Source: a virus | Virus record (IMG/VR): IMGVR_UViG_3300009551_000036 | Span: 1 to 36,348 of that record | Strand: one strand, 5' to 3' | DNA length: 36,348 nt | In this document: one piece after another, positions 5,704 to 15,155 of the stretch | Layout: the number at the start of each line of letters is the position of its first letter | Numbering within the stretch: the first letter of the stretch is position 1 | Notes under the pieces: generated by a model | The model's input: the letters and a program-made list of their open reading frames with translations, nothing else | Told to the model about the DNA's origin: nothing | Databases searched by the model: none | Made by a program: the position numbers and the translations under genes

Positions 5704-8196
5704 TTACCCCGCAATTTCCGTAAGTGTGATTGAGGATGAAGCGCGTTGATGCCTTCCATCGGCTGTATCAGCGATGCTCTGATTGATCCAGGTTCCAGGA
5801 GAAAACCAACTTGCTGCTTGAAGTTTATAAGTTAAGGCAGAACTATCCCCGGGAGTATCCAGATAATTAAACACATTAGAAAGAGGTGGAGTATCGGTAT
5901 TCGCAGGAAGTGCAATGGCTGTAGAAACCAGATTCGTATTGCCCGCGCTATTTTGACCGAGGCCAATCGGCATCCCGTTTCGGCAAAGTCTCATGCCCGC
6001 TCCGCCCACATTACTTGAAACAGCCGATAAGGAGACTTGTACATAAATCTTACTCCGAATGGAACGGGGGCTGATATTGACGGCTGATCCTGGAATATCC
6101 CACCACACATTGGTTCCAATGGCCGTATTTCCACCTGTGACCGTCGTATTCCACCAATTTTGAACGACTTGGATGACCGATCCGGCTGGCATCTGATTGA
6201 TTTGAAGGGGGGGCTGAACCGGCGAGAAAGTCTGAATATTGCTCATCTCGCCTTGTGGCCTAAAAAAATCAATGGCTGAGATTAAAACGGTCCCTCCCTG
6301 GACCACAAGACTCACACTATGAAACGTGAGACTGGCATTGGAGCCTGCCGGCATGATCACGGTATTCATGCTCGTTGCCCCTAAATTTGCCCCGGAATCA
6401 ATCGCAAAGGTCAGGCTTCCCCCGGCTCCAATCGAGGATCCAGTGACGACAGCCATGCGATCGCCATAATATTGGAAATTGAGAGTACAAGTGGTTGTCG
6501 CCCCGAAATACCCAATGCCCCCTGGCATCGTCGCTCCAACGGCTCTCACCCACGGGCCTTTGAATAAAAGGGCATCTCCAAACACGCGTTGAAAGATTCC
6601 GGGTGGGATGAACGTGGCATTCGTATTGTGAGGGATAAACGCTTGCAGAGTATCGTAGGCCGCCAGAATCCCAAAGGTGGGGGAGAGATCATGAGCCCGA
6701 CGGTACATATTGATCTTAGTCAGTCCAACATTGATGTGAGAGGATCCAGGAAAGAAGGCGAAATTATTCCAGCCAGGTCCTGCATCCATGAAGACCGTCT
6801 TTTTCAAAACGCCTGTAAAGCCAATATTATTGTGACTAAAGACCGGTAGTCCGTTCACAATCATGGTGCCTGAAAGAACGGCAAAACTCATCCCAGCCCA
6901 CTCAATCTCAGCGGCACTGAAATAGCCTTCGCATTGAACGAATCCTGCGGCTGAGGTAAAGACCATGGCGTTGGAGTTATCGAGTAAGGTCACCCCTGCC
7001 ACGTTATTGCCCCACACACAGTATTTCTGATACCCATCGATAAAGGGCATGGTGGATAAATCACTGCCCAAATAGGTATAGGAGAGAATATTCAAACTGG
7101 CATTAATGGCTAAGGATTGCCCTGCTTTGAAATAGGTATAAATCGCAGAGGACACTCCAAAGGGCAATTGAGGATAAACGGTCAAAGCATCCGTTGAAAT
7201 CGACTGAATGACGCCAATATAGGGAGTAGCCCCGGAATTGGACGCCGTAATGATGCCTTGGCCCGCAGTGAATTTGGAACCATCCCCTGTCGTGACGTTC
7301 AGGATACTCGTTGAAATATTCCCTTGGGCAATACTATTGATCGTACTGACGCCTAGGGTTGAGGTCGAATAGCCTGCGGTAATCGTCTTATAGATGACCG
7401 ACCTGCCGCCGAGAGAGGTCCCAAAGGTCGGCAACGGAAGGGTCGCATTGACTGAGGTTTTAGCCTGAGTCTTATTGTTATAGGTCAGGCCTGGGAATTG
7501 ATCGATCGAAAGAGTGGAGTTTTCCGAATAGACAACGACTCCAGCAATCGTAAAAACCCCGCCGCCTTGATTGGCGGTTAACCTAAAATCATGGATATTG
7601 TAAGTCTCGTTAGCCCCGGCATGGACGCTTGCTGCATACATGGGGGTTGTTTGCGGATTTTGAGTCGTATTGATGGATGCAGGTCCCACTGACATGTTGG
7701 ACCAATCCACACTAGTCGAATTCGAAACCCCATCCACAAAGACGGTTCCTGTGGCATTGCCTGCTGCGGCCGTATTGCCAATCATCATAAACATGCAGCG
7801 CGCAAAGACTCCGCCTACTCCAAAACCATCGTTGGGAGTCCTGATTTGAATAAAAGTCTGAAGTCCTTGCCTAATGAGCTGAAAATTCCCATAGACATAG
7901 CCTTGAGCCGAAGGAAAAGGCTCATGCCAAACGATGTTATAGGTGGGTTCGCCATTGATCCAAAAGGCTTTGTTTTGAACCAAAACGAGGTCCTTAATCC
8001 AAAGAGTTTTAGGACCAAATCTTGGGAAATCATCATTCCCATAGAGATTATTCAGCGGGTTATTCGAGAAAGTAGAACTAAACCCTGAATTCGTTGAGGG
8101 AGTGTCAGTGACATCAGAAAACACATCCTGCGTGAAAGCGGCGCTTCCTGCAGAGGTCGAGTCACTGGAGAACATCGTAATGGAGTTCTGACTCAT
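5704..8196 (-). CDS. Tail fibre / tailspike-like protein (830 aa)
   Basis: Very long ORF rich in Gly/Ser/Thr/Asn/Ala, with a beta-strand-like periodicity. RBS AAAGGA lies upstream of the ATG. Position is in the tail block. Confidence 0.5.
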   Translation of the reverse strand: MSQNSITMFSSDSTSAGSAAFTQDVFSDVTDTPSTNSGFSSTFSNNPLNNLYGNDDFPRFGPKTLWIKDLVLVQNKAFWINGEPTYNIVWHEPFPSAQGYVYGNFQLIRQGLQTFIQIRTPNDGFGVGGVFARCMFMMIGNTAAAGNATGTVFVDGVSNSTSVDWSNMSVGPASINTTQNPQTTPMYAASVHAGANETYNIHDFRLTANQGGGVFTIAGVVVYSENSTLSIDQFPGLTYNNKTQAKTSVNATLPLPTFGTSLGGRSVIYKTITAGYSTSTLGVSTINSIAQGNISTSILNVTTGDGSKFTAGQGIITASNSGATPYIGVIQSISTDALTVYPQLPFGVSSAIYTYFKAGQSLAINASLNILSYTYLGSDLSTMPFIDGYQKYCVWGNNVAGVTLLDNSNAMVFTSAAGFVQCEGYFSAAEIEWAGMSFAVLSGTMIVNGLPVFSHNNIGFTGVLKKTVFMDAGPGWNNFAFFPGSSHINVGLTKINMYRRAHDLSPTFGILAAYDTLQAFIPHNTNATFIPPGIFQRVFGDALLFKGPWVRAVGATMPGGIGYFGATTTCTLNFQYYGDRMAVVTGSSIGAGGSLTFAIDSGANLGATSMNTVIMPAGSNASLTFHSVSLVVQGGTVLISAIDFFRPQGEMSNIQTFSPVQPPLQINQMPAGSVIQVVQNWWNTTVTGGNTAIGTNVWWDIPGSAVNISPRSIRSKIYVQVSLSAVSSNVGGAGMRLCRNGMPIGLGQNSAGNTNLVSTAIALPANTDTPPLSNVFNYLDTPGDSSALTYKLQAASWFSPGTWINQSIADTADGRHQRASSSITLTEIAG

Positions 8197-8781: not shown

Positions 8782-9232
8782 CGTGAATTCTCCTTCTTTC
8801 AATCCGATTTAATGATGAAGTGTTAATGTCATTGGTTGCCCTAGCAAAGTCCCGTCTCAGATCATAAGCTCGTGCACGCATTTCATTCCGAAATGCGCGT
8901 TGTTTATTGTCCCTTCGTCTTTGTCGGTCCTCACAGAAGCGATCATAATCACTGTCGTCTCGCCAGCCGTCGATCTTTTGCATTTGAGCCAAAATCGGCT
9001 CTATGCCCCAATCCACAGGCTTTCCTGTTTCAATCCAATTATCGGTGAGAGGGAGGACTAGTTGTTCCCAATCAAAACCAAACCAAAGAACGCAATCTCC
9101 AGGCATTCTGTAAAAATCATACCCTCTGCGTTTCCTTAAGATAGCTAAGGCGCCGTCCATGTAACGGCGGCTCACCAAATCAGAATCGTACCGTTTAAGA
9201 AGTCCGTTCATTTGTCTAAGCTTCTGATCCAA
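8765..9232 (-). CDS. Hypothetical protein (155 aa, TTG start) with an Arg-rich C-terminal half
   Basis: RBS TAAGGAG followed by 7 nt and TTG. Directly downstream of the capsid stop. Confidence 0.5.
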   Translation of the reverse strand: MDQKLRQMNGLLKRYDSDLVSRRYMDGALAILRKRRGYDFYRMPGDCVLWFGFDWEQLVLPLTDNWIETGKPVDWGIEPILAQMQKIDGWRDDSDYDRFCEDRQRRRDNKQRAFRNEMRARAYDLRRDFARATNDINTSSLNRIERRRIHDGYRG

Positions 9233-9243
9233 AACGAATCTCC

Positions 9244-11221
9244 TTATGGGCTAATGTAGTTTTGCAAACAAGCGGAGGCTGATGGCTTTTCCAAAAACAG
9301 ATTGGCAAAAAGCCTGAGACGCGCTTCGAATGCGTCACTTCCAATTTGGGCGATCAGGTAACTGCCCGTTTCGTCCGCCCATTCCATCTCGGCGAGTACG
9401 TATTTTTTCAGGTTCCCTTCTGTAATAAAGAAGAACCGTGTAGGGCAGGATTGATCCGCTAGAATCGGAGCACCTGAGAAGTTGAGGTAAACCTCATCCT
9501 TACTCGTGAATGTTCCGTCTCCAGTGACCTTTTCACCGATGTATCTGCGATCAGCGACCAATACAGTCTTGTTATCGCCTTGGCTTTTTATCCTAGGCTT
9601 CTTAGGCTTCTTTTTTCACCTAAGCTCAGCGTACATTTTCAGTCTTTTGAACTGTCGACCACTCTTGGGGGCATTGTTGGTTTCATCCCTCAGCCCCTAC
9701 GCGTTACGCAGCTAACGAAATTTCTTCGTCAGTTTGCTCGGGATTGGCATCGCAGCGTCCCCCGATTTTGGTCAATTTTGAATCGCCCATTTTGGTTAAG
9801 CGATTGTAATATCTCTCAGAATCGAAATCGCAATAAACGACAGAAATCTTCCCACCGCCTCGCCGTCTAGCATTATTCAATGCTTGTTGCATGGCGTTTA
9901 GATTCAGCTGTTGACCTGCTAAATCAATATTGTTTCCTTGGAAACTTGGAAAGAGGCTCCTGTCAATATTATAGATAGAACTGGTGCCGCCGTCCAAGCT
10001 CGTCAAGAGGCCCTGGATTTCGTTGCTCACTGTTCCAGACCGAATGACAAGATTGTTGGCTGCCACACTCACATTATTATCCAATGTCAGAGTAACCGTC
10101 GCTGTTCCAATTCCGCTCATAGCTGTAATCTGAACGTTATTGGCCAACACGTTGTTATTGGTGTCGACGATATCGATCTGAGTTCCGATATCGAGAAACT
10201 TCTCAGGGGCTTCAGCTGAAGCAATCCCTGCTTGGGTATCCCGATTCTGAATCGAAATGGAGTTCGTTCCGACAGCATTAGCAGAAACGGTCGCGAGACG
10301 GCCATTGCCGTTCCACCCCAACTGACGATTCACGTCCCATTTGGAATCGTTCACATTCTGTTACCCCTAGCCTTTCGGCTAGTGGAGGAACCGCTTCGGA
10401 TTCCTCTCAACGGCTTCTTTGGTTATACCGTTGTTCAGACTATCGCATCCCTTTCGGGCCCTCTCACTTAGTCGTTCAGGCTGCTTTCGCTTGCCCCTTG
10501 TCACCCGCTTCCGGGCTTCCAAGTCAATCAGAGTGGGTTTTAGAGGGACTGTAAGTACTTGAAATACTTGAGTTAATCCCTCAGTCATTTCAAATTCCAT
10601 CGCTGTAACAAATGCGCCCTTATCACCCTGGGAGCTTTTGATCAGCGGGCCTGTGAGACCGAACAAACGATCACAGTTTTGAAATGACTTCTGCGCTTCG
10701 GTCATGCAGCACGCAGATAATTATACTTCGCAGCAATAATGGCTTGCTGAGTGGTCTGTTGACCGATTTTGGGTAGGTTTCCGCCATCACTGGTAGCTCC
10801 GATACCCTGGTTACGTCTTACCTTCACAGGTCGAATGACTTGTTGACCGTTCCACTTCTCTTTTCCCTTTTCAGCTCCCCTATAGAGCGGTAGCAAGTTT
10901 GTTATCGTCCAGGTTTTTTATCCCAGACTTCTCACCATTTTATTTCAGTGAGTTCAGCGTACATTTTCAACCATTTCTGGTTGCCGGGGACTCTTGGGAG
11001 AGTTTATGTCTCCTACGCGTTACGGACGGATCAATCCTTGATCTCGCCCTCGGTATTCCCGTCTCAGGGTCCACCGATACACCCCAGTTTTTCATTTTCT
11101 ACTTACGTAGAAAAGCGACCATTTTTACATAATCGTCATTGAATTGGGAAACGATTGGACCGGCATAGTAGTTCTTCAGAATCGCCAGGGCGTTTGCCAC
11201 GTTGGCGAATTGATTAGCCAT
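9244..11221 (-). CDS. Major capsid protein (HK97-fold-like), interrupted. Proposed coding segments, complement: 11221..11132, 10893..10711, 10669..10576, 10353..9799, 9563..9244. Mature product about 410 aa.
   Basis: GGAGG RBS then ATG at 11221 (MANQFANVANALAILKNYYAGPIVSQFNDD). Later pieces read LPLYRGAEKGKEKWNGQQVIRPVKVRRNQGIGATSDGGNLPKIGQQTTQQAIIAAKYNYLR / LFGLTGPLIKSSQGDKGAFVTAMEFEMTEG / (L)NDSKWDVNRQLGWNGNGRLATV...SERYYNR / LLVADRRYIGEKV...LQNYISP*. Together these match the recalled pattern of this capsid family (..Y.YGRI.v.GP.I.....GAF..A.E.E......NRq..GdG.G.LA.v). The gene follows the scaffold gene. Confidence 0.8.
9564..9798 (-). ncRNA. Group I-like intron 3 in the capsid gene (235 nt, no ORF), paralogue of intron 1
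   Basis: P1: exon AAUCGCU | UAACCAAAAUG GGCGAUU gives 7 bp with U.G at the splice site. It ends ...CGAUAACAAGACUG | UAUUGG. It shares these blocks with intron 1: cctacgcgttacg (9696-9708 vs 11012-11024), tcagcgtacattttca (9626-9641 vs 10954-10969), actcttggg (9661-9669 vs 10990-10998), ttgttatcg and tttttatcc. Splicing gives ...YYNR-L-LVADRRY in frame. Confidence 0.7.
10354..10575 (-). ncRNA. Group I intron 2 in the capsid gene (222 nt, no genuine ORF)
   Basis: P1: exon GAGGGAU (10582-10576) pairs with GUCCCUC (10549-10543), with U.G at the splice site. R-like UGAACGACUAAG and S-like GCGAUAGUCUGAAC give P7 GACUA (10473-10469) / UAGUC (10442-10438). P4/P5 is CUUG-GAA-GCCCG-GAAG-CGGGU-GA-CAAG. 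GAAA tetraloops occur at CCC-GAAA-GGG, GC-GAAA-GC and CUAGCC-GAAA-GGCUAG (10382-10367). It ends ...GGUAACAGAAUG | UGAAC. Length is divisible by 3 and joins GGA U|UG AAC in frame. Confidence 0.75.
10894..11131 (-). ncRNA. Group I-like intron 1 in the capsid gene (about 238 nt, no ORF)
   Basis: 5' exon ...GACGAU | UAUGUAAAAAUG GUCG gives a 4-bp P1 with a U.G pair at the splice site. It ends ...CGAUAACAAACUUG (terminal G) | CUACCG. A UUUUCUAC-GUAA-GUAGAAAA tetraloop hairpin is present. P7 candidate is GCGUA (in GUAACGCGUAGG) with UACGC (in AUGUACGCUGA). An alternative 5' splice site lies 3 nt downstream (after UAU). Confidence 0.65.
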
Positions 11222-11269
11222 GATTGGCCTCCTTGCCTTGTCTCTCTCAATTGCGTTTTAAGTTATGGT

Positions 11270-12118
11270 TCAGAATGCGCCTGAATCAATGTCACTCAGA
11301 GCTGCAGCGGTTGCTTCTTTAATGGATTTGAATTGTCTCGGAGCTTGCCCCGGATTTCCGCCTCCACGTCCCGCATCACTGCTTTTCCGATTGGCTTGAA
11401 CTTGCGCTTGAACCTGCTTTTTATAGTTCTTATCGGCAATCTGGTGATTACGGTCATGCACGCCCTTCCAAAGAGCATCCCATTGTTTATCCGAAATCCT
11501 GAGATTGCGGTTCATTGGGTCTGCTTCTTTGAGTTTATTGAGCAATGCTTGAGCGCGAGCCACCACGGCTTCCTCATCAGCAAAGGGATATTTCTGCGAG
11601 AGTGTTCGAAATTTATTATCGAGTTCTGCGGAAATAGCTGCGACTTCTTTTTCGCGAAAATTCTGCTCAAGCTGATTGATCCTCATTTCCATGGATGGAT
11701 CTAACCGGGCATAAGCATTTTGCTGAGATTGGCCTGGATTGGGATAATTGGGAGATTGACTGGAGTTTTCTAAGACATATCTCAGATAGCCATGAAACTT
11801 ATCTGGATAGATCGTTCGAAATTGTTCCGCCAAATGGGGATTAGCACGCACTCGGTCCAAATCGACAGCCAGGTTGTCGTAATATTTACGTTCCTGGGCC
11901 ATTTGAGCCGTTTTCTGGGTGTAATCGCCATGTCTCATGTAGCCGGTCTCCCAGTCTTTGAGAGGTCGGCCTCGGTACCGATAACGATCTGGATTCTCTA
12001 TCTCAATGGGTTCTTCAGCTTTTTTTGCTGATTCCGCAGGAGAAGGAGTCTCTAGGGTGCCGTTATCTAAACTCGGTTCGGAAGCAGGGACTGCTTCCTG
12101 AATATTTTGTTCTTCCAT
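11270..12118 (-). CDS. Putative scaffolding protein (282 aa)
   Basis: Lies between the portal-side genes and the capsid gene. Charged, helix-prone, Gln/Glu/Lys/Arg-rich sequence with an acidic N-terminus. Confidence 0.5.
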   Translation of the reverse strand: MEEQNIQEAVPASEPSLDNGTLETPSPAESAKKAEEPIEIENPDRYRYRGRPLKDWETGYMRHGDYTQKTAQMAQERKYYDNLAVDLDRVRANPHLAEQFRTIYPDKFHGYLRYVLENSSQSPNYPNPGQSQQNAYARLDPSMEMRINQLEQNFREKEVAAISAELDNKFRTLSQKYPFADEEAVVARAQALLNKLKEADPMNRNLRISDKQWDALWKGVHDRNHQIADKNYKKQVQAQVQANRKSSDAGRGGGNPGQAPRQFKSIKEATAAALSDIDSGAF

Positions 12119-12611: not shown

Positions 12612-15155
12612 TCATCGTCTCCTTGGGGGTAATCCCACCGGTCGCGGCGGCGACCCTCGTCCCTGCTTAGGCGGTCCTACGGGCGCAGGGCCCGGAGCTG
12701 GTGCTCCAGCTCCAAACTGTGCTTTTTTGGCCGCCATTCGGTCGTTGGCACCTGGGGGTAATCCGGCAATGGCTTCTCCACCTGCTCCAATGGGCGGTGG
12801 AGGCATTGGGGGAAGCGGAGGCATCGGAGTATTGGAAGGGCCTGGAGGCATGAGCTGATTGAGCCTGTCTTCCATCTGAGCTTCAAAAAGACGCCTAATT
12901 TCCTCAGGCAGCATTCCCCATTTATCGGATTTTCTGAATCGATTGAGCTCTTGGCACCAAAGGATGTTGTTATCCTTCTTATCGATCTCGACGAATTCGC
13001 CTTTTTCCAATGCGTCCATGCCTCGTTTGATTTGAGCCATGTCGATGTGTTGGTCTTCAAAGATTTCCTGACTCTGTCCAAATTCCAAAGCATCCAAGAT
13101 CTTCATTGCAACCGATGGATCGGATTTGGGGTCACCGAGAAGTCCCAGACTCATGGTATTGACGATGTCCTGGCGCTTGAGAGTCTTTGAATCAGGGAGA
13201 GTGGATCCTCTCACGACTCTCACATCCGTATTGCCTCTCAAAAGCCTGCCATCGAGTTCCCGGATAATGTATTCGCCTGATTTGCCGGCAAGTTTCATTT
13301 TGCGGGGCATTTCGTAATTCTTCTCCACCTGTTTTAGGATCTGACGAAACACTTTGGACCAAGATCGCTCTAAGAGTTCAGTGATGACGCTTAATCGAGT
13401 CTGATCTTGCTCCTGGAGAAGCTGAGCGCCAATAGCGGGTATAGAAGCAGAAGGCAGAATGCCGCGAGAAACGTCGCCGATCCCAAAAATATAATCCATA
13501 ATTTTGTCGAGACGCTCTTCTTCAGTGTAAGCGTATTCTGGGATGGTGGGGACGGGTAAGGGTTCGATGTTTTGAGGGGCTGAGGGCACGACATTGTAAT
13601 AAAGCACTTCTCCTGATTCATCATTCATGGCCTCTTGGGCAAGGCCGGAACCTCTCGGGGCTTTGTATTTGCCCGCAAGCATTCGTCTTGTCCATTCAGC
13701 CCTTCGTCTTAAAGTTTCATTATATTGATCCTGAATCGGTCTTGCATGAGTGACCGGAGTCTCACTGTAATATTTGCCGCCTATGATGGTATCATCAAAT
13801 TTGGTGAGCGGGATTTCTCCGATAGGCAAATCTTTGCTATCTAAGAACACACCATTCGCTGCAGCAATCATCCGTCCTTGAGGAAATTTGGCTGAAGGCT
13901 TTTCATACTTAATCATTTCAATCGCAGAATTTTTCATCTGCTCAGTCAACCCCCCTTGCGAAGGGCCGCGAGAATTGAGCGAATTGACCCGCATTTCATA
14001 CTGAGCAGAAAGAAGCCACGCTGCTTCTTCTTTCACTAAATGTCCTCGTTCTGGATAATTGGCCTGAAAGTAATGAAGCGGTCTGACTTTAGCCAGCATC
14101 AAATATTGAGCATCATCATCGGTTCTAGCAAAAGGATCTGGAAAGACCGAAAACGCCGATTCAACTTCAATATCGACATCTCCTTGATAACCCAACGTCC
14201 CATCTTCCAGGATCATCGGATCGCCTAGTAATGGGTTCCATTTCACATGAATATAGGAATGCCCACATTGCTGCATCCACATGTAAAGAAACAGGCGCTT
14301 CTTATTGACTTCCAATCTTTCGATTTGAGTGTTTAAGACCTGCATCGAAAGTTTCGCTGCATCCTTATCCTCAACATCATCTGTTTCTGGAACAATGTCG
14401 TATTCGGGTGGATTCTGACAAAGACGCGCTAATCGATTTTGAACCGTAGGTAAGATCTTATTGGCATGAATGCGGTTTCGTCTCAAGTAGGCACTGGCGC
14501 GATTGATGGGCTGAAACTGGCGCGCAGTCGTATTATACATCAGGCCGTCGTAGCCTAGGCAGTTATGGACTAAGATCCCATTGGCGAAATATTCATGGAT
14601 TGTCTCAATGGTTAGGTCAAAGACATGTTGTGGACCTACACATAAGCGCTTCACAAAACAAACGTCTTCATTCTTTTCTGAGATGACATGCATCCCGACT
14701 TGCAGATTTTGGGCTTGGACCCAGCCATAAGCTTTGGTGTAAATCTTATGCTCATCGGTGCATTTCAGAATCGATCCATCTGAGAAATAATGGTCATAAC
14801 AGGTCTTTGTGCCATTATCCCAGACTCGAAGAACACGCCGATACCCATCGCGTGTTTTAACAAGATCTTTCGTTGTGAGTTTCTCGATTGCGGTATAGCC
14901 ATTGGCCGTCGCAATGACTGAATCGCCTGAGACGCAATAGGCGCAGTTCGTCATCCAGATTCCCTCATGTGCAATTCGATTCGCACTCGAGCGATTGGAT
15001 TCCAGCTCAGCTCTTAATTTCTGAGCCATGTCGATTTCTTCAGAGGATTGATCACTGACGCTTTTGGGCTTTTTATTGCGATCTGGGTCCGTCTGCGACG
15101 ACTGGGCCGCAAAGGGCTGATTCCCCCCAAATAATGATTTCAATAAACCCGCCAT
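12612..15155 (-). CDS. Portal protein precursor (847 aa) containing a mini-intein and a Pro-rich basic C-terminal tail
   Basis: Largest head-module ORF, downstream of the terminase pieces. RBS AAGGA. The mature protein would be about 722 aa after intein removal. The portal assignment rests on size and position. Confidence 0.65.
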   Translation of the reverse strand: MAGLLKSLFGGNQPFAAQSSQTDPDRNKKPKSVSDQSSEEIDMAQKLRAELESNRSSANRIAHEGIWMTNCAYCVSGDSVIATANGYTAIEKLTTKDLVKTRDGYRRVLRVWDNGTKTCYDHYFSDGSILKCTDEHKIYTKAYGWVQAQNLQVGMHVISEKNEDVCFVKRLCVGPQHVFDLTIETIHEYFANGILVHNCLGYDGLMYNTTARQFQPINRASAYLRRNRIHANKILPTVQNRLARLCQNPPEYDIVPETDDVEDKDAAKLSMQVLNTQIERLEVNKKRLFLYMWMQQCGHSYIHVKWNPLLGDPMILEDGTLGYQGDVDIEVESAFSVFPDPFARTDDDAQYLMLAKVRPLHYFQANYPERGHLVKEEAAWLLSAQYEMRVNSLNSRGPSQGGLTEQMKNSAIEMIKYEKPSAKFPQGRMIAAANGVFLDSKDLPIGEIPLTKFDDTIIGGKYYSETPVTHARPIQDQYNETLRRRAEWTRRMLAGKYKAPRGSGLAQEAMNDESGEVLYYNVVPSAPQNIEPLPVPTIPEYAYTEEERLDKIMDYIFGIGDVSRGILPSASIPAIGAQLLQEQDQTRLSVITELLERSWSKVFRQILKQVEKNYEMPRKMKLAGKSGEYIIRELDGRLLRGNTDVRVVRGSTLPDSKTLKRQDIVNTMSLGLLGDPKSDPSVAMKILDALEFGQSQEIFEDQHIDMAQIKRGMDALEKGEFVEIDKKDNNILWCQELNRFRKSDKWGMLPEEIRRLFEAQMEDRLNQLMPPGPSNTPMPPLPPMPPPPIGAGGEAIAGLPPGANDRMAAKKAQFGAGAPAPGPAPVGPPKQGRGSPPRPVGLPPRRR
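14562..14936 (-). mobile_element. Mini-intein (125 aa, residues 74-198 of the portal ORF, +1 Cys at residue 199), no endonuclease domain
   Basis: Block A CVSGDSVIATANG. Block B ILKCTDEHKIY (TxxH). Block F VFDLTIETIHEYFANG. Block G ILVHN followed by C. Codons checked on the sequence: tgc at 14936-14934, aac at 14564-14562, tgc at 14561-14559. Confidence 0.8.

What the first reader, a model, noticed from the sequence alone, without database searches (positions are those of the whole stretch)
10354..10575. Intron 2 is a compact, textbook-like group I ribozyme whose RNA is mis-read as a 108-aa ORF
The 222-nt element can be folded by eye:
- P1 of 7 bp with a U.G pair (GAGGGAU/GUCCCUC).
- P4-P5 with A-rich internal loops.
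- P6 and P8 capped by GAAA.
- P7 GACUA/UAGUC embedded in R-like UGAACGACUAAG and S-like GAUAGUCUGAAC.
- Three peripheral P9 hairpins, including CUAGCC-GAAA-GGCUAG.
- A terminal G.

It belongs to a different lineage from introns 1 and 3, so the capsid gene was invaded at least twice independently. ORF 10379..10705 in the track is a chimera of 94 nt of real exon plus in-frame intron RNA.
Basis: partly seen in the sequence, partly recalled or inferred. Interest (0 to 1): 0.6.

Follow-up and report, generated by a model that had tools for sequence, protein, structure and literature searches.

The report
Small group I intron in capsid gene
The 222-base insert in this phage's major capsid gene is a genuine small group I (self-splicing type) intron with no gene of its own; the kind is well known, but this copy belongs to a large phage intron family that the standard Rfam model misses, and it may also supply the catalytic RNA for a 47-base core-less insert just upstream.

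Summary
Confirmed. Window 10575..10354 (minus strand) is a 222-nt ORF-less intron in an SU10/P22-type major capsid gene.

- **Splice junction.** Removing it joins ...AMEFEMTEG + L + NDSKWDV..., as in uninterrupted 411-aa homologues. All 80 related capsid genes fetched from IMG/VR lack it.
- **Fold.** Fifty-eight relatives from viral contigs support P3, P5, P6, P7, P8, P9 and P9a by compensatory changes: 94.7% of cells paired, against 40-46% with slid partners. This includes the P3/P7 pseudoknot and the bulged P7 typical of group I. A P1 ending in U.G is kept in 41 of 49 relatives, with unrelated sequences.
- **Rfam.** RF00028 gives no hit on this copy or on two relatives, although it finds the T4, Twort and S-PM2 introns. 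My own model of the family weakly picks out the S-PM2 psbA and Twort orf142 introns.
- **Differences from known types.** The intron lacks P2 and P7.1/P7.2. I could not assign a subgroup.
- **108-aa ORF.** It is a read-through artefact.
- **Introns 1 and 3.** They belong to a separate lineage.
- **Untested.** Self-splicing. No RNA data were found.

The scan has met this family before on other DNA.

In passing: the 47-nt frame-breaking insert upstream has a group I guide, a terminal G and a 12-bp tether abutting this intron's P1. Six relatives show the same layout.

The parts
10354..10575 (-). Intron 2: 222-nt ORF-less group I intron. First base is U10575; the last base is the terminal G (omega-G) at 10354.
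   Evidence: Exon junction against intronless homologues. Covariation-supported fold. Family model score of 173 bits.
10576..10663 (-). Upstream coding exon of 88 nt (FGLTGPLIKSSQGDKGAFVTAMEFEMTEG plus the first base of a Leu codon). Its last 7 nt, GAGGGAU (10582-10576), are the 5' strand of P1.
   Evidence: Aligns with homologue codons at 81% DNA identity.
10543..10549 (-). Internal guide sequence GUCCCUC (3' strand of P1). G10549 pairs with U10576 as the splice-site wobble.
   Evidence: Sequence. P1 of 6 bp or more ending in U.G in 41 of 49 relatives, against 5.8% of shuffles.
10553..10569 (-). Hairpin inside the P1 loop (AAGUAUU-UCA-AGUACUU). Specific to this copy.
   Evidence: Minimum-free-energy folds. 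Not conserved in relatives.
10531..10537 (-). P3 5' strand CCCACUC. It pairs with GAGAGGG (10465-10459) with one A.A mismatch. Preceded by J1/3 UAAAA (10542-10538), so there is no P2.
   Evidence: All 7 pairs show double changes and 99% of cells are paired.
10479..10523 (-). P4-P6 domain. P4 10523-10520/10500-10497; P5 10516-10512/10507-10503 with a GAAG loop; P6 10495-10493/10481-10479; P6a 10490-10489/10484-10483 with a GAAA loop.
   Evidence: P5 and P6 covary. P4 varies on one side only.
10437..10475 (-). P7 and its enclosed elements. P7 is A10475 plus GACUA 10473-10469, with C10474 bulged, pairing with UAGUCU 10442-10437. It encloses the P3 3' strand, P8 (10458-10456/10451-10449, GAAA loop) and J8/7 AUGCGA. 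G10473-C10438 is the presumed guanosine-binding pair.
   Evidence: The pair beside the bulge covaries (AU 50, GC 6, UA 2). The last P7 pair covaries (AU 42, GC 15, UA 1). P7 crosses P3, forming a pseudoknot.
10367..10433 (-). Peripheral 3' domain. P9 10433-10427/10414-10408; P9a 10406-10399/10392-10385; P9b 10382-10377/10372-10367 with a GAAA loop. The stop codon of the false 108-aa ORF (UAG 10381-10379) lies in P9b.
   Evidence: P9 and P9a covary. P9b is seen in the subset of relatives with the same 3' end.
9799..10353 (-). Downstream coding exon. It starts with UG, which completes the Leu codon, and continues NDSKWDVNRQ... (the 3' end is approximate).
10664..10710 (-). 47-nt frame-breaking insert ('mini-intron'). 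Not part of the assigned finding but physically linked to it. The guide ACCGAA-GCGCAG (10702-10691) pairs with the ligated exons CUGCGU|UUCGGU. The insert ends in G. Its nt 22-33 (10689-10678) pair perfectly with exon 10594-10583, which directly abuts the P1 strand of intron 2.

Best explanation
Window 10575-10354 (minus strand) is an ORF-less group I intron transcribed within the major capsid mRNA of a 36-kb podophage.

**How it most likely works.** It is removed by the standard two-step group I pathway.
1. The guide GUCCCUC pairs with the exon end GAGGGAU to form P1, with a U.G wobble at the cleavage site.
2. A free guanosine bound at the G10473-C10438 pair of P7 attacks after U10576.
3. The terminal G10354 then takes the same pocket.
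4. The freed exon end attacks after G10354 and joins the exons. This creates the Leu codon UUG and restores a 411-aa-type capsid protein.

**What is shown.** The exact insertion point, the conserved and covarying group I fold, the non-coding nature of the insert, and membership of a large mobile phage intron family that splits capsid and ribonucleotide reductase genes.

**What is inferred.** The chemistry, autonomy from proteins, and the identity of the G-binding pair.
For: **Exact excision site.**
- Intronless homologues of 411 aa (up to 81% identity) read AMEFEM(S/T)EGLND(L)K straight across the site.
- An uninterrupted gene aligns to the window in collinear DNA blocks on either side.
- All 80 related capsid genes fetched from IMG/VR are uninterrupted.

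**Fold, measured on 58 distinct relatives.**
- 94.7% of cells are paired, against 74.6% in shuffles and 40-46% with slid partners.
- 33 of 45 pairs have double changes, and 0 of 500 shuffles reach the observed values.
- This includes P3 crossing P7, and the P7 pair beside a bulged base.
- RNAalifold predicts the same nested helices on its own.

**P1.** A P1 of 6 bp or more ending in U.G occurs in 41 of 49 relatives, with unrelated sequences, against 5.8% of shuffles.

**Non-coding.** 54 of 58 relatives have stops in all three frames, and core lengths are spread over all three residues mod 3.

**Mobile-intron behaviour.**
- Relatives split a P22-type coat gene in MW202674.1 and a ribonucleotide reductase gene in Roseobacter phage CRP-118.
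- Others split a class II ribonucleotide reductase gene and other capsid genes.
- In some relatives the P6 loop carries a long insert with an ORF. One of six such ORFs tested matches the LAGLIDADG endonuclease family.

**Link to proven ribozymes.**
- The family model R1 gives one hit at E <= 1 in each of the S-PM2 and Twort genomes, both weak (18.8 bits, E 0.015; 14.6 bits, E 0.10).
- Both hits fall on introns that RF00028 also finds.
- The alignments share J1/3, P3, P4-P5, the ACGACUA and AUAGUC(U/C)GAAC elements, P9 and P9a.
Against: - RF00028 gives no hit at all on this intron or on two relatives, even at E <= 10. It does score the T4, Twort and S-PM2 introns at 36-105 bits.
- The links to Twort and S-PM2 are weak (15-19 bits).
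- The intron has no P2, a 4-bp P4, an unusually long J3/4 and only a 2-3 bp P10.
- There is no RNA evidence of the spliced junction, and no homing endonuclease in or next to this copy.
- A sub-lineage of the family (the MW202674.1 type) has a P1 region that I could not reconcile with a U.G splice site.
Confidence: 0.9

Rival explanations
1. It is a group I-derived intron that no longer splices on its own. It would need a phage or host protein, or help from the other introns on the same transcript, to fold or to catalyse splicing.
For: The periphery is minimal: no P2 and no P7.1/P7.2. P4 and P10 are short. Scores against RF00028 are very low. Three introns plus a mini-intron share one transcript.
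Against: All core helices and joining strands are intact and under purifying selection in 58 or more relatives. To my knowledge, group I introns of similar or smaller size self-splice; the 212-nt S-PM2 psbA intron, for example, is equally compact.
Confidence: 0.07
2. It is not an intron. It would be a structured intergenic RNA between two separately translated capsid fragments, or the 108-aa ORF would be a real protein.
For: One reading frame stays open for 197 nt into the element, and an ORF of 108 aa is called.
Against: The downstream exon has no start context of its own and begins in the middle of a codon. The two exons join in frame to match homologues residue for residue. 54 of 58 relatives have stops in all frames. 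The ORF fragments tested, including the upstream exon portion of the 108-aa ORF, hit no Pfam family.
Confidence: 0.02
3. It belongs to a ribozyme class of its own that only resembles group I introns by convergence.
For: RF00028 fails completely on this family.
Against: The order of helices, the P3/P7 pseudoknot, the bulged P7 with GACUA/UAGUC, the J8/7 sequence, the U.G pair and the terminal G are all the group I pattern. My model also aligns end to end with the Twort and S-PM2 introns. RF00028 is known to miss whole subgroups (PMC6125680, PMC11878797).
Confidence: 0.01

Closest known systems
Staphylococcus phage Twort orf142 group I introns (subgroup IA2; crystal structure of the I2 ribozyme, from my own knowledge: Landthaler and Shub 1999; Golden et al. 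2005)
   Same: Phage late-gene setting, with three ORF-less introns in one gene. The 3' half is very similar: ACGACUA in P7, AUAGUCUGAAC, then a P9 hairpin, a second hairpin and a ...GUAACA...G end. My family model aligns to two of these introns over its full length.
   Different: The Twort introns have P2 and the P7.1/P7.2 pair (a 90-nt insert in the alignment). RF00028 scores them at 64-101 bits, whereas the window's intron has neither element and gets no RF00028 score.
Synechococcus phage S-PM2 psbA intron (about 212 nt, ORF-less)
   Same: Compact ORF-less phage group I intron of about the same size. It is the only hit of my family model at E <= 1 in that 196-kb genome (18.8 bits), and the hit shares J1/3 UUUAAA, P3, P4-P5, J8/7-P7 and P9/P9a.
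   Different: RF00028 recognises it at 87.8 bits, and it carries a long P6 insert in my alignment. It lies in a photosynthesis gene rather than a capsid gene.
Group I introns already reported in phage capsid genes (Cluster J mycobacteriophages, PMC3706429; others listed)
   Same: An intron interrupts the major capsid gene and must be spliced to make the virion protein.
   Different: No sequence relationship was tested here. This copy belongs to a family known so far mainly from metagenomic viral contigs.
Engineered group I 'spliceozymes' and trans-excision-splicing ribozymes (PMC4094466, PMC2532722)
   Same: A group I core removes an internal segment from an RNA that has no core of its own. 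This is what the mini-intron layout beside intron 2 suggests.
   Different: Those are laboratory constructs in which the guide sits on the ribozyme. Here the guide sits in the excised segment and a separate helix ties it to the neighbouring natural intron. Nothing has been tested at the bench.

Membership tests
Group I introns (class defined by fold and mechanism) | P1 formed by the 5' exon end and an internal guide, with U.G at the cleavage site | tested here: met
   GAGGGAU/GUCCCUC with U10576.G10549. Conserved as a pairing, not as a sequence, in 41 of 49 relatives.
Group I introns (class defined by fold and mechanism) | Core order P3-P4-P5-P6-P7-P3'-P8-P7', with P3 and P7 crossing as a pseudoknot, supported by covariation | tested here: met
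   94.7% of cells paired, 33 of 45 pairs with double changes, slid controls 40-46%; the nested helices are recovered by RNAalifold.
Group I introns (class defined by fold and mechanism) | P7 with a bulged base next to a G-C pair (the guanosine pocket) | tested here: met
   A(c)GACUA/UAGUCU. The pair beside the bulge covaries (AU, GC, UA), and the G-C pair is invariant in all 58 sequences. Its function as a pocket is inferred.
Group I introns (class defined by fold and mechanism) | Intron ends in G (omega-G) | tested here: met
   G10354 is fixed by the homologue junction. Relatives end ...GUAACA(N2-6)G in most rows.
Group I introns (class defined by fold and mechanism) | P10 between the 3' exon and the guide region | tested here: inconclusive
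   Only UG/CA, plus one more pair across an A.A mismatch, can form.
Group I introns (class defined by fold and mechanism) | Guanosine-dependent self-splicing | not testable with these tools
   No RNA-holding run was listed for the window. A bench assay is needed.
Rfam RF00028 (Intron_gpI) | Score at or above the 50-bit gathering threshold | tested here: not met
   No match even at E <= 10. Two relatives also score nothing, while T4, Twort and S-PM2 score 36-105 bits. This is a limit of the model, not of the class (PMC6125680, PMC11878797).
Subgroup IA (IA1/IA2) | Extra P7.1/P7.2 helices between the P3 3' strand and P8 (from my own knowledge of Michel and Westhof 1990) | tested here: not met
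   Only one hairpin (P8) lies between the P3 3' strand and J8/7 in the window and in all 58 relatives.
GISSD subgroups IA3, IB, IC, ID, IE | Best score with a subgroup-specific covariance model | not testable with these tools

The most novel reading that the evidence does not exclude
The catalytic core of intron 2 may serve two introns. Besides removing itself, it would excise the 47-nt core-less 'mini-intron' 88 nt upstream (10710-10664).

**What the mini-intron carries.**
- A 12-nt guide that pairs with both flanking exons: P1 with U.G, plus a 6-bp P10.
- A terminal G.
- A 12-bp helix to the exon bases that directly abut the P1 of intron 2. In the predicted fold the mini-intron's P1, this tether and the intron 2 P1 follow one another with no unpaired base between them.

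**Recurrence.** The same layout recurs in six other members of this intron family, at two further exon sites.
- The mini-introns are 30-59 nt long. Each has an 8-10 bp tether ending 0-1 nt from the neighbour's P1.
- Both the P10 pairing and the tether differ in sequence between copies while staying complementary to their own exons.
- Shuffled controls never give a tether longer than 5 bp.
- Removing each mini-intron restores the same conserved peptide.

**Status.** A natural intron that has lost its ribozyme and borrows its neighbour's would be new as far as my literature search shows. Other follow-up notes of this scan reached the same idea. That is not independent proof.
Probability: 0.5. 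Interest if true: 0.85.

Novelty: new member of a known kind. Interest (0 to 1): 0.4.

Why it matters
- **Annotation.** The capsid gene of this phage is called as fragments, including a false 108-aa protein. Knowing the intron lets the real protein be assembled, roughly 411 aa as in its homologues.
- **Detection gap.** The intron belongs to a large family: 78 distinct ORF-less copies in the IMG/VR contigs sampled here, splitting capsid and ribonucleotide reductase genes. RF00028 does not see this family at all, so current pipelines undercount phage group I introns. A dedicated covariance model would fix that.
- **Minimal ribozyme.** At about 170 nt the core has no P2 and no P7.1/P7.2, which makes it a compact natural ribozyme to study.
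- **Possible shared catalysis.** If the link to the neighbouring mini-intron holds, this intron is the catalytic half of a natural two-part splicing system. That bears on how introns degenerate and yet persist.

Tried and rejected
- **Rfam.** The whole window at gathering thresholds, and 9000-11600 at E <= 10, gave nothing. RF00028 run directly on the genome gave nothing. Because the model does find the T4, Twort and S-PM2 introns, I read this as a limit of the model for this lineage, not as evidence against a group I fold.
- **RNA evidence.** No RNA holder was listed for the capsid region; only three DNA runs from rhizosphere metagenomes came up. I did not lay reads.
- **The 16-mer in bacterial and archaeal genomes.** By my own estimate, a 16-mer in 596 Gb is expected roughly 280 times by chance. 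The family model confirmed only 7 of the first 100 loci, mostly short MAG contigs. I therefore claim no host range.
- **Intron-bearing close relatives of this capsid gene.** None were found; 5 of 5 and 80 of 80 relatives are uninterrupted. There is no second copy at this site for direct comparison.
- **Subgroup assignment.** Not possible without the GISSD models. The paper on subgroup ID (PMC7595605) gave no usable structural criteria.
- **Pfam on exon fragments.** Nothing was found. The capsid identity comes from homologues carrying PF17236.
- **P1 of the MW202674.1-type sub-lineage.** I could not place a U.G splice site by eye and left it unresolved.
- **Translational bypass from CGU to CGU for the 47-nt insert.** I consider it less likely. 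It would add a Leu that is absent from all homologues, and it does not explain the 12-nt guide or the tether.
Full report
**Setting.** The window is a complete 36.3-kb phage record with terminal repeats. Its portal protein is P22/SU10-like and carries a Hint/intein-type insert. The major capsid gene lies on the minus strand between 11221 and 9244. ORF calling finds only fragments there. Uninterrupted homologues of 401-411 aa are common in metagenomes, and some carry Pfam PF17236.

Aligning five of these homologues with the window's exon translations shows four interruptions. Aligning one intronless gene (L124) at the DNA level shows the same four:
- about 238 nt after ...SQFNDD (intron 1);
- 47 nt between ...YNYLR and FGLTGP...;
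- 222 nt between ...FEMTEG and NDSKWD... (intron 2, the assigned finding);
- about 235 nt after ...YYNRL (intron 3).

**The observation.** Read on the minus strand, the element starts at U10575 and ends at G10354. Taking it out joins GGA-U to UG-AAC. This makes a Leu codon and gives AMEFEMTEGLNDSKWDV. Homologues read AMEFEM(S/T)EGLND(L)KxDV with no gap.

The helix coordinates are in the parts list. The single sequence folds better than all 200 shuffles, with z = -3.8.

**Relatives.** A blastn search of phage records found the intron core, at 76-79% identity, inside two split genes:
- a P22-type coat gene of the uncultured podovirus MW202674.1;
- a ribonucleotide reductase gene of Roseobacter phage CRP-118.

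A few of these are chance matches, but 78 distinct ORF-less copies carry all the core motifs.
- In other copies the P6 loop carries a long insert with an ORF. One of six such ORFs tested matches the LAGLIDADG endonuclease family, on the opposite strand.
- Host genes I could name are a class II ribonucleotide reductase and two further capsid genes.
- Several contigs carry two to six copies close together.
- The window's copy is at most about 68% identical to any sampled relative.

**Structure test.** I aligned 58 distinct copies and counted pairs for the group I model, with P7 written as a pseudoknot.
- 94.7% of cells form standard pairs. Column shuffles give 74.6%, and sliding every 3' partner by 1-3 columns gives 40-46%.
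- 33 of 45 pairs show changes on both sides, and no shuffle reached any observed measure.
- All pairs of P3, P6/P6a, P8 and P9a show double changes, as do 6 of the 7 pairs of P9.
- P7 is mostly invariant, but its last pair switches between A-U and G-C. The pair on the far side of the bulged base switches between A-U, G-C and U-A.
- P4 varies on one side only, so it says little either way.
- RNAalifold, given no structure, returned the same nested helices.

The 5' strand of P1 does not align by column, so I tested P1 separately. In 41 of 49 rows with G at the wobble column, the guide pairs over 6-8 contiguous positions with an upstream stretch ending in U. The sequences are unrelated between copies. 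Only 5.8% of shuffled upstream regions do as well.

The element is not coding. 54 of 58 cores have stops in all three frames, and core lengths are spread evenly over the three residues mod 3. The window's open frame ends at a UAG inside P9b.

**Is it a group I intron?** The helix order, the P3/P7 pseudoknot enclosing P8, the bulged P7 with an invariant G-C, the A-rich J4/5, J8/7, the U.G pair and the terminal G are the defining pattern of the class.

Rfam finds nothing in the window, even at E <= 10 over 2.6 kb. RF00028 run directly on the genome also finds nothing.

As a control, the same model scores the known T4, Twort and S-PM2 introns at 36-105 bits. It gives no candidate in MW202674.1 or CRP-118. 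The lineage is therefore invisible to that model.

This is a known weakness of RF00028:
- Nawrocki and colleagues found no significant RF00028 hits where subgroup models found 95 (PMC6125680).
- A 2025 study of Bastillevirinae introns notes that the seed lacks whole subgroups and may miss phage variants (PMC11878797).

I built a covariance model of the 170-nt core (R1).
- It scores intron 2 at 173 bits.
- In the whole S-PM2 and Twort genomes it gives one hit each at E <= 1, both weak (18.8 bits, E 0.015; 14.6 bits, E 0.10). Both fall on introns that RF00028 also marks.
- In a search of the fetched loci alone, a second Twort intron also scored (17.8 bits).
- The alignments run end to end and share J1/3, P3, P4-P5, the P7 strands, J8/7, P9 and P9a.

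Compared with the Twort introns, this family lacks P2; only UAAAA separates P1 from P3. It also lacks P7.1/P7.2. I therefore do not file it under subgroup IA, and I could not test the other subgroups.

**Introns 1 and 3.** They match each other (blastn E = 4e-12), but neither matches intron 2. They hit different phages: Staphylococcus and Arcanobacterium phages for intron 1, and Leptolyngbya and Alicyclobacillus phages for intron 3. R1 scores them at only 10 and 17 bits, aligning mainly P8-P9-P9a. Their P7-like strands are GCGUA/UACGC.

**Mechanism.** The best reading is ordinary group I splicing, as set out in the best explanation. The insertion site, the fold and the selection on it are shown. 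Catalysis is inferred. No RNA-holding run was listed for this DNA.

**Noticed beside it.** The 47-nt insert at 10710-10664 is not a multiple of three and carries a stop codon, so it cannot be read through. It is relevant here because it is tied to intron 2.
- Its bases 9-20, ACCGAA-GCGCAG, are complementary to the joined exons CUGCGU|UUCGGU, with a U.G at the junction. The insert ends in G.
- Its bases 22-33 pair perfectly with exon 10594-10583, the twelve bases that directly precede the P1 strand of intron 2. None of 300 shuffles matched this pairing.
- The minimum-energy fold of 10730-10530 places the mini P1, this tether and the intron 2 P1 side by side, with no unpaired base between them.

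I then scanned the 400 nt upstream of 84 family introns that have a confident P1.
- Seven, including the window, have a short insert of 30-59 nt lying 26-88 nt upstream.
- Each has a P1 guide with U.G, a contiguous P10 guide, a terminal G and an 8-12 bp tether ending 0-1 nt from the neighbour's P1.
- Five-fold shuffled controls gave guide-only candidates with tethers of at most 5 bp.
- The six others lie in another capsid gene family, at two sites. Removing each insert restores the same peptide...SFYG|TYV.LNEQ.... A distant uninterrupted homologue is continuous there.
- P10 covaries at one site: ACCU/AGGU, ACAU/AUGU and ACGUA/UACGU. The tethers differ in sequence, yet each matches its own exon.

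This supports, but does not prove, that the full intron lends its core to the mini-intron. Engineered group I ribozymes can remove internal segments in trans (PMC4094466, PMC2532722). My one literature search for a natural case turned up none.

Earlier notes of this scan describe the same idea for this window and for two other genomes. I treated them as leads and re-derived the evidence on my own loci.

**Verdict.** As a kind it is familiar: group I introns in phage capsid genes are documented (PMC3706429), and several introns in one phage gene are known from Twort orf142 (my own knowledge: Landthaler and Shub 1999). What is worth keeping is the large, compact, Rfam-invisible family, and the probable helper role for the neighbouring mini-intron.

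Noticed in passing
window 10664-10710 (minus strand), with 10583-10594: A 47-nt frame-breaking insert between ...YNYLR and FGLTGP... It has a contiguous 12-nt guide for both exons (P1 with U.G, plus P10) and a terminal G. A perfect 12-bp helix joins it to the exon bases abutting the P1 of intron 2. It has no catalytic core.
   Followed up: partly
L011 1118-1176, L051 740-773, L062 2302-2342, L077 11576-11605 (plus strand); L026 and L099 (minus strand of the locus; positions 6341-6371 and 2782-2817 counted on the reverse complement): Six more core-less mini-introns of 30-59 nt lie 26-66 nt upstream of full introns of the same family in another capsid gene family. Each has its guide, a terminal G and an 8-10 bp tether next to the neighbour's P1. 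P10 and the tethers differ in sequence between copies, yet each stays complementary to its own exon.
   Followed up: partly
window 9564-9798 and 10894-11131 (minus strand): Introns 1 and 3 are paralogues of each other (blastn E = 4e-12). They have a group I-like 3' half and P7-like strands GCGUA/UACGC. Rfam misses them too. Their relatives lie in Staphylococcus, Arcanobacterium, Leptolyngbya and Alicyclobacillus phages.
   Followed up: partly
L279 (3.5-kb MAG contig), L115, L110, L092, L059: Several contigs carry two to six copies of this intron family within 1-2.6 kb, so single genes have been colonised repeatedly. L279 has six model hits in 2.5 kb.
   Followed up: no
L038 67-555 (opposite strand to the intron); similar ORF in L006: Some family members carry a LAGLIDADG endonuclease ORF in the P6 loop, encoded antisense to the intron. 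This orientation is unusual for a phage group I intron.
   Followed up: partly
L001 (MW202674.1), L003, L009, L020, L046: In the sub-lineage that splits a P22-type coat gene after ...MSTY, the last exon base appears to sit in a Watson-Crick pair (U-A or C-G, covarying) rather than a U.G wobble. Either the splice site or the P1 model for this sub-lineage is unresolved.
   Followed up: no
window 12612-15155 (minus strand): The portal protein gene carries a Hint/intein-type insert (matches to PT-HINT and to the intein splicing domain). So the head module holds an intein, three introns and a mini-intron.
   Followed up: no
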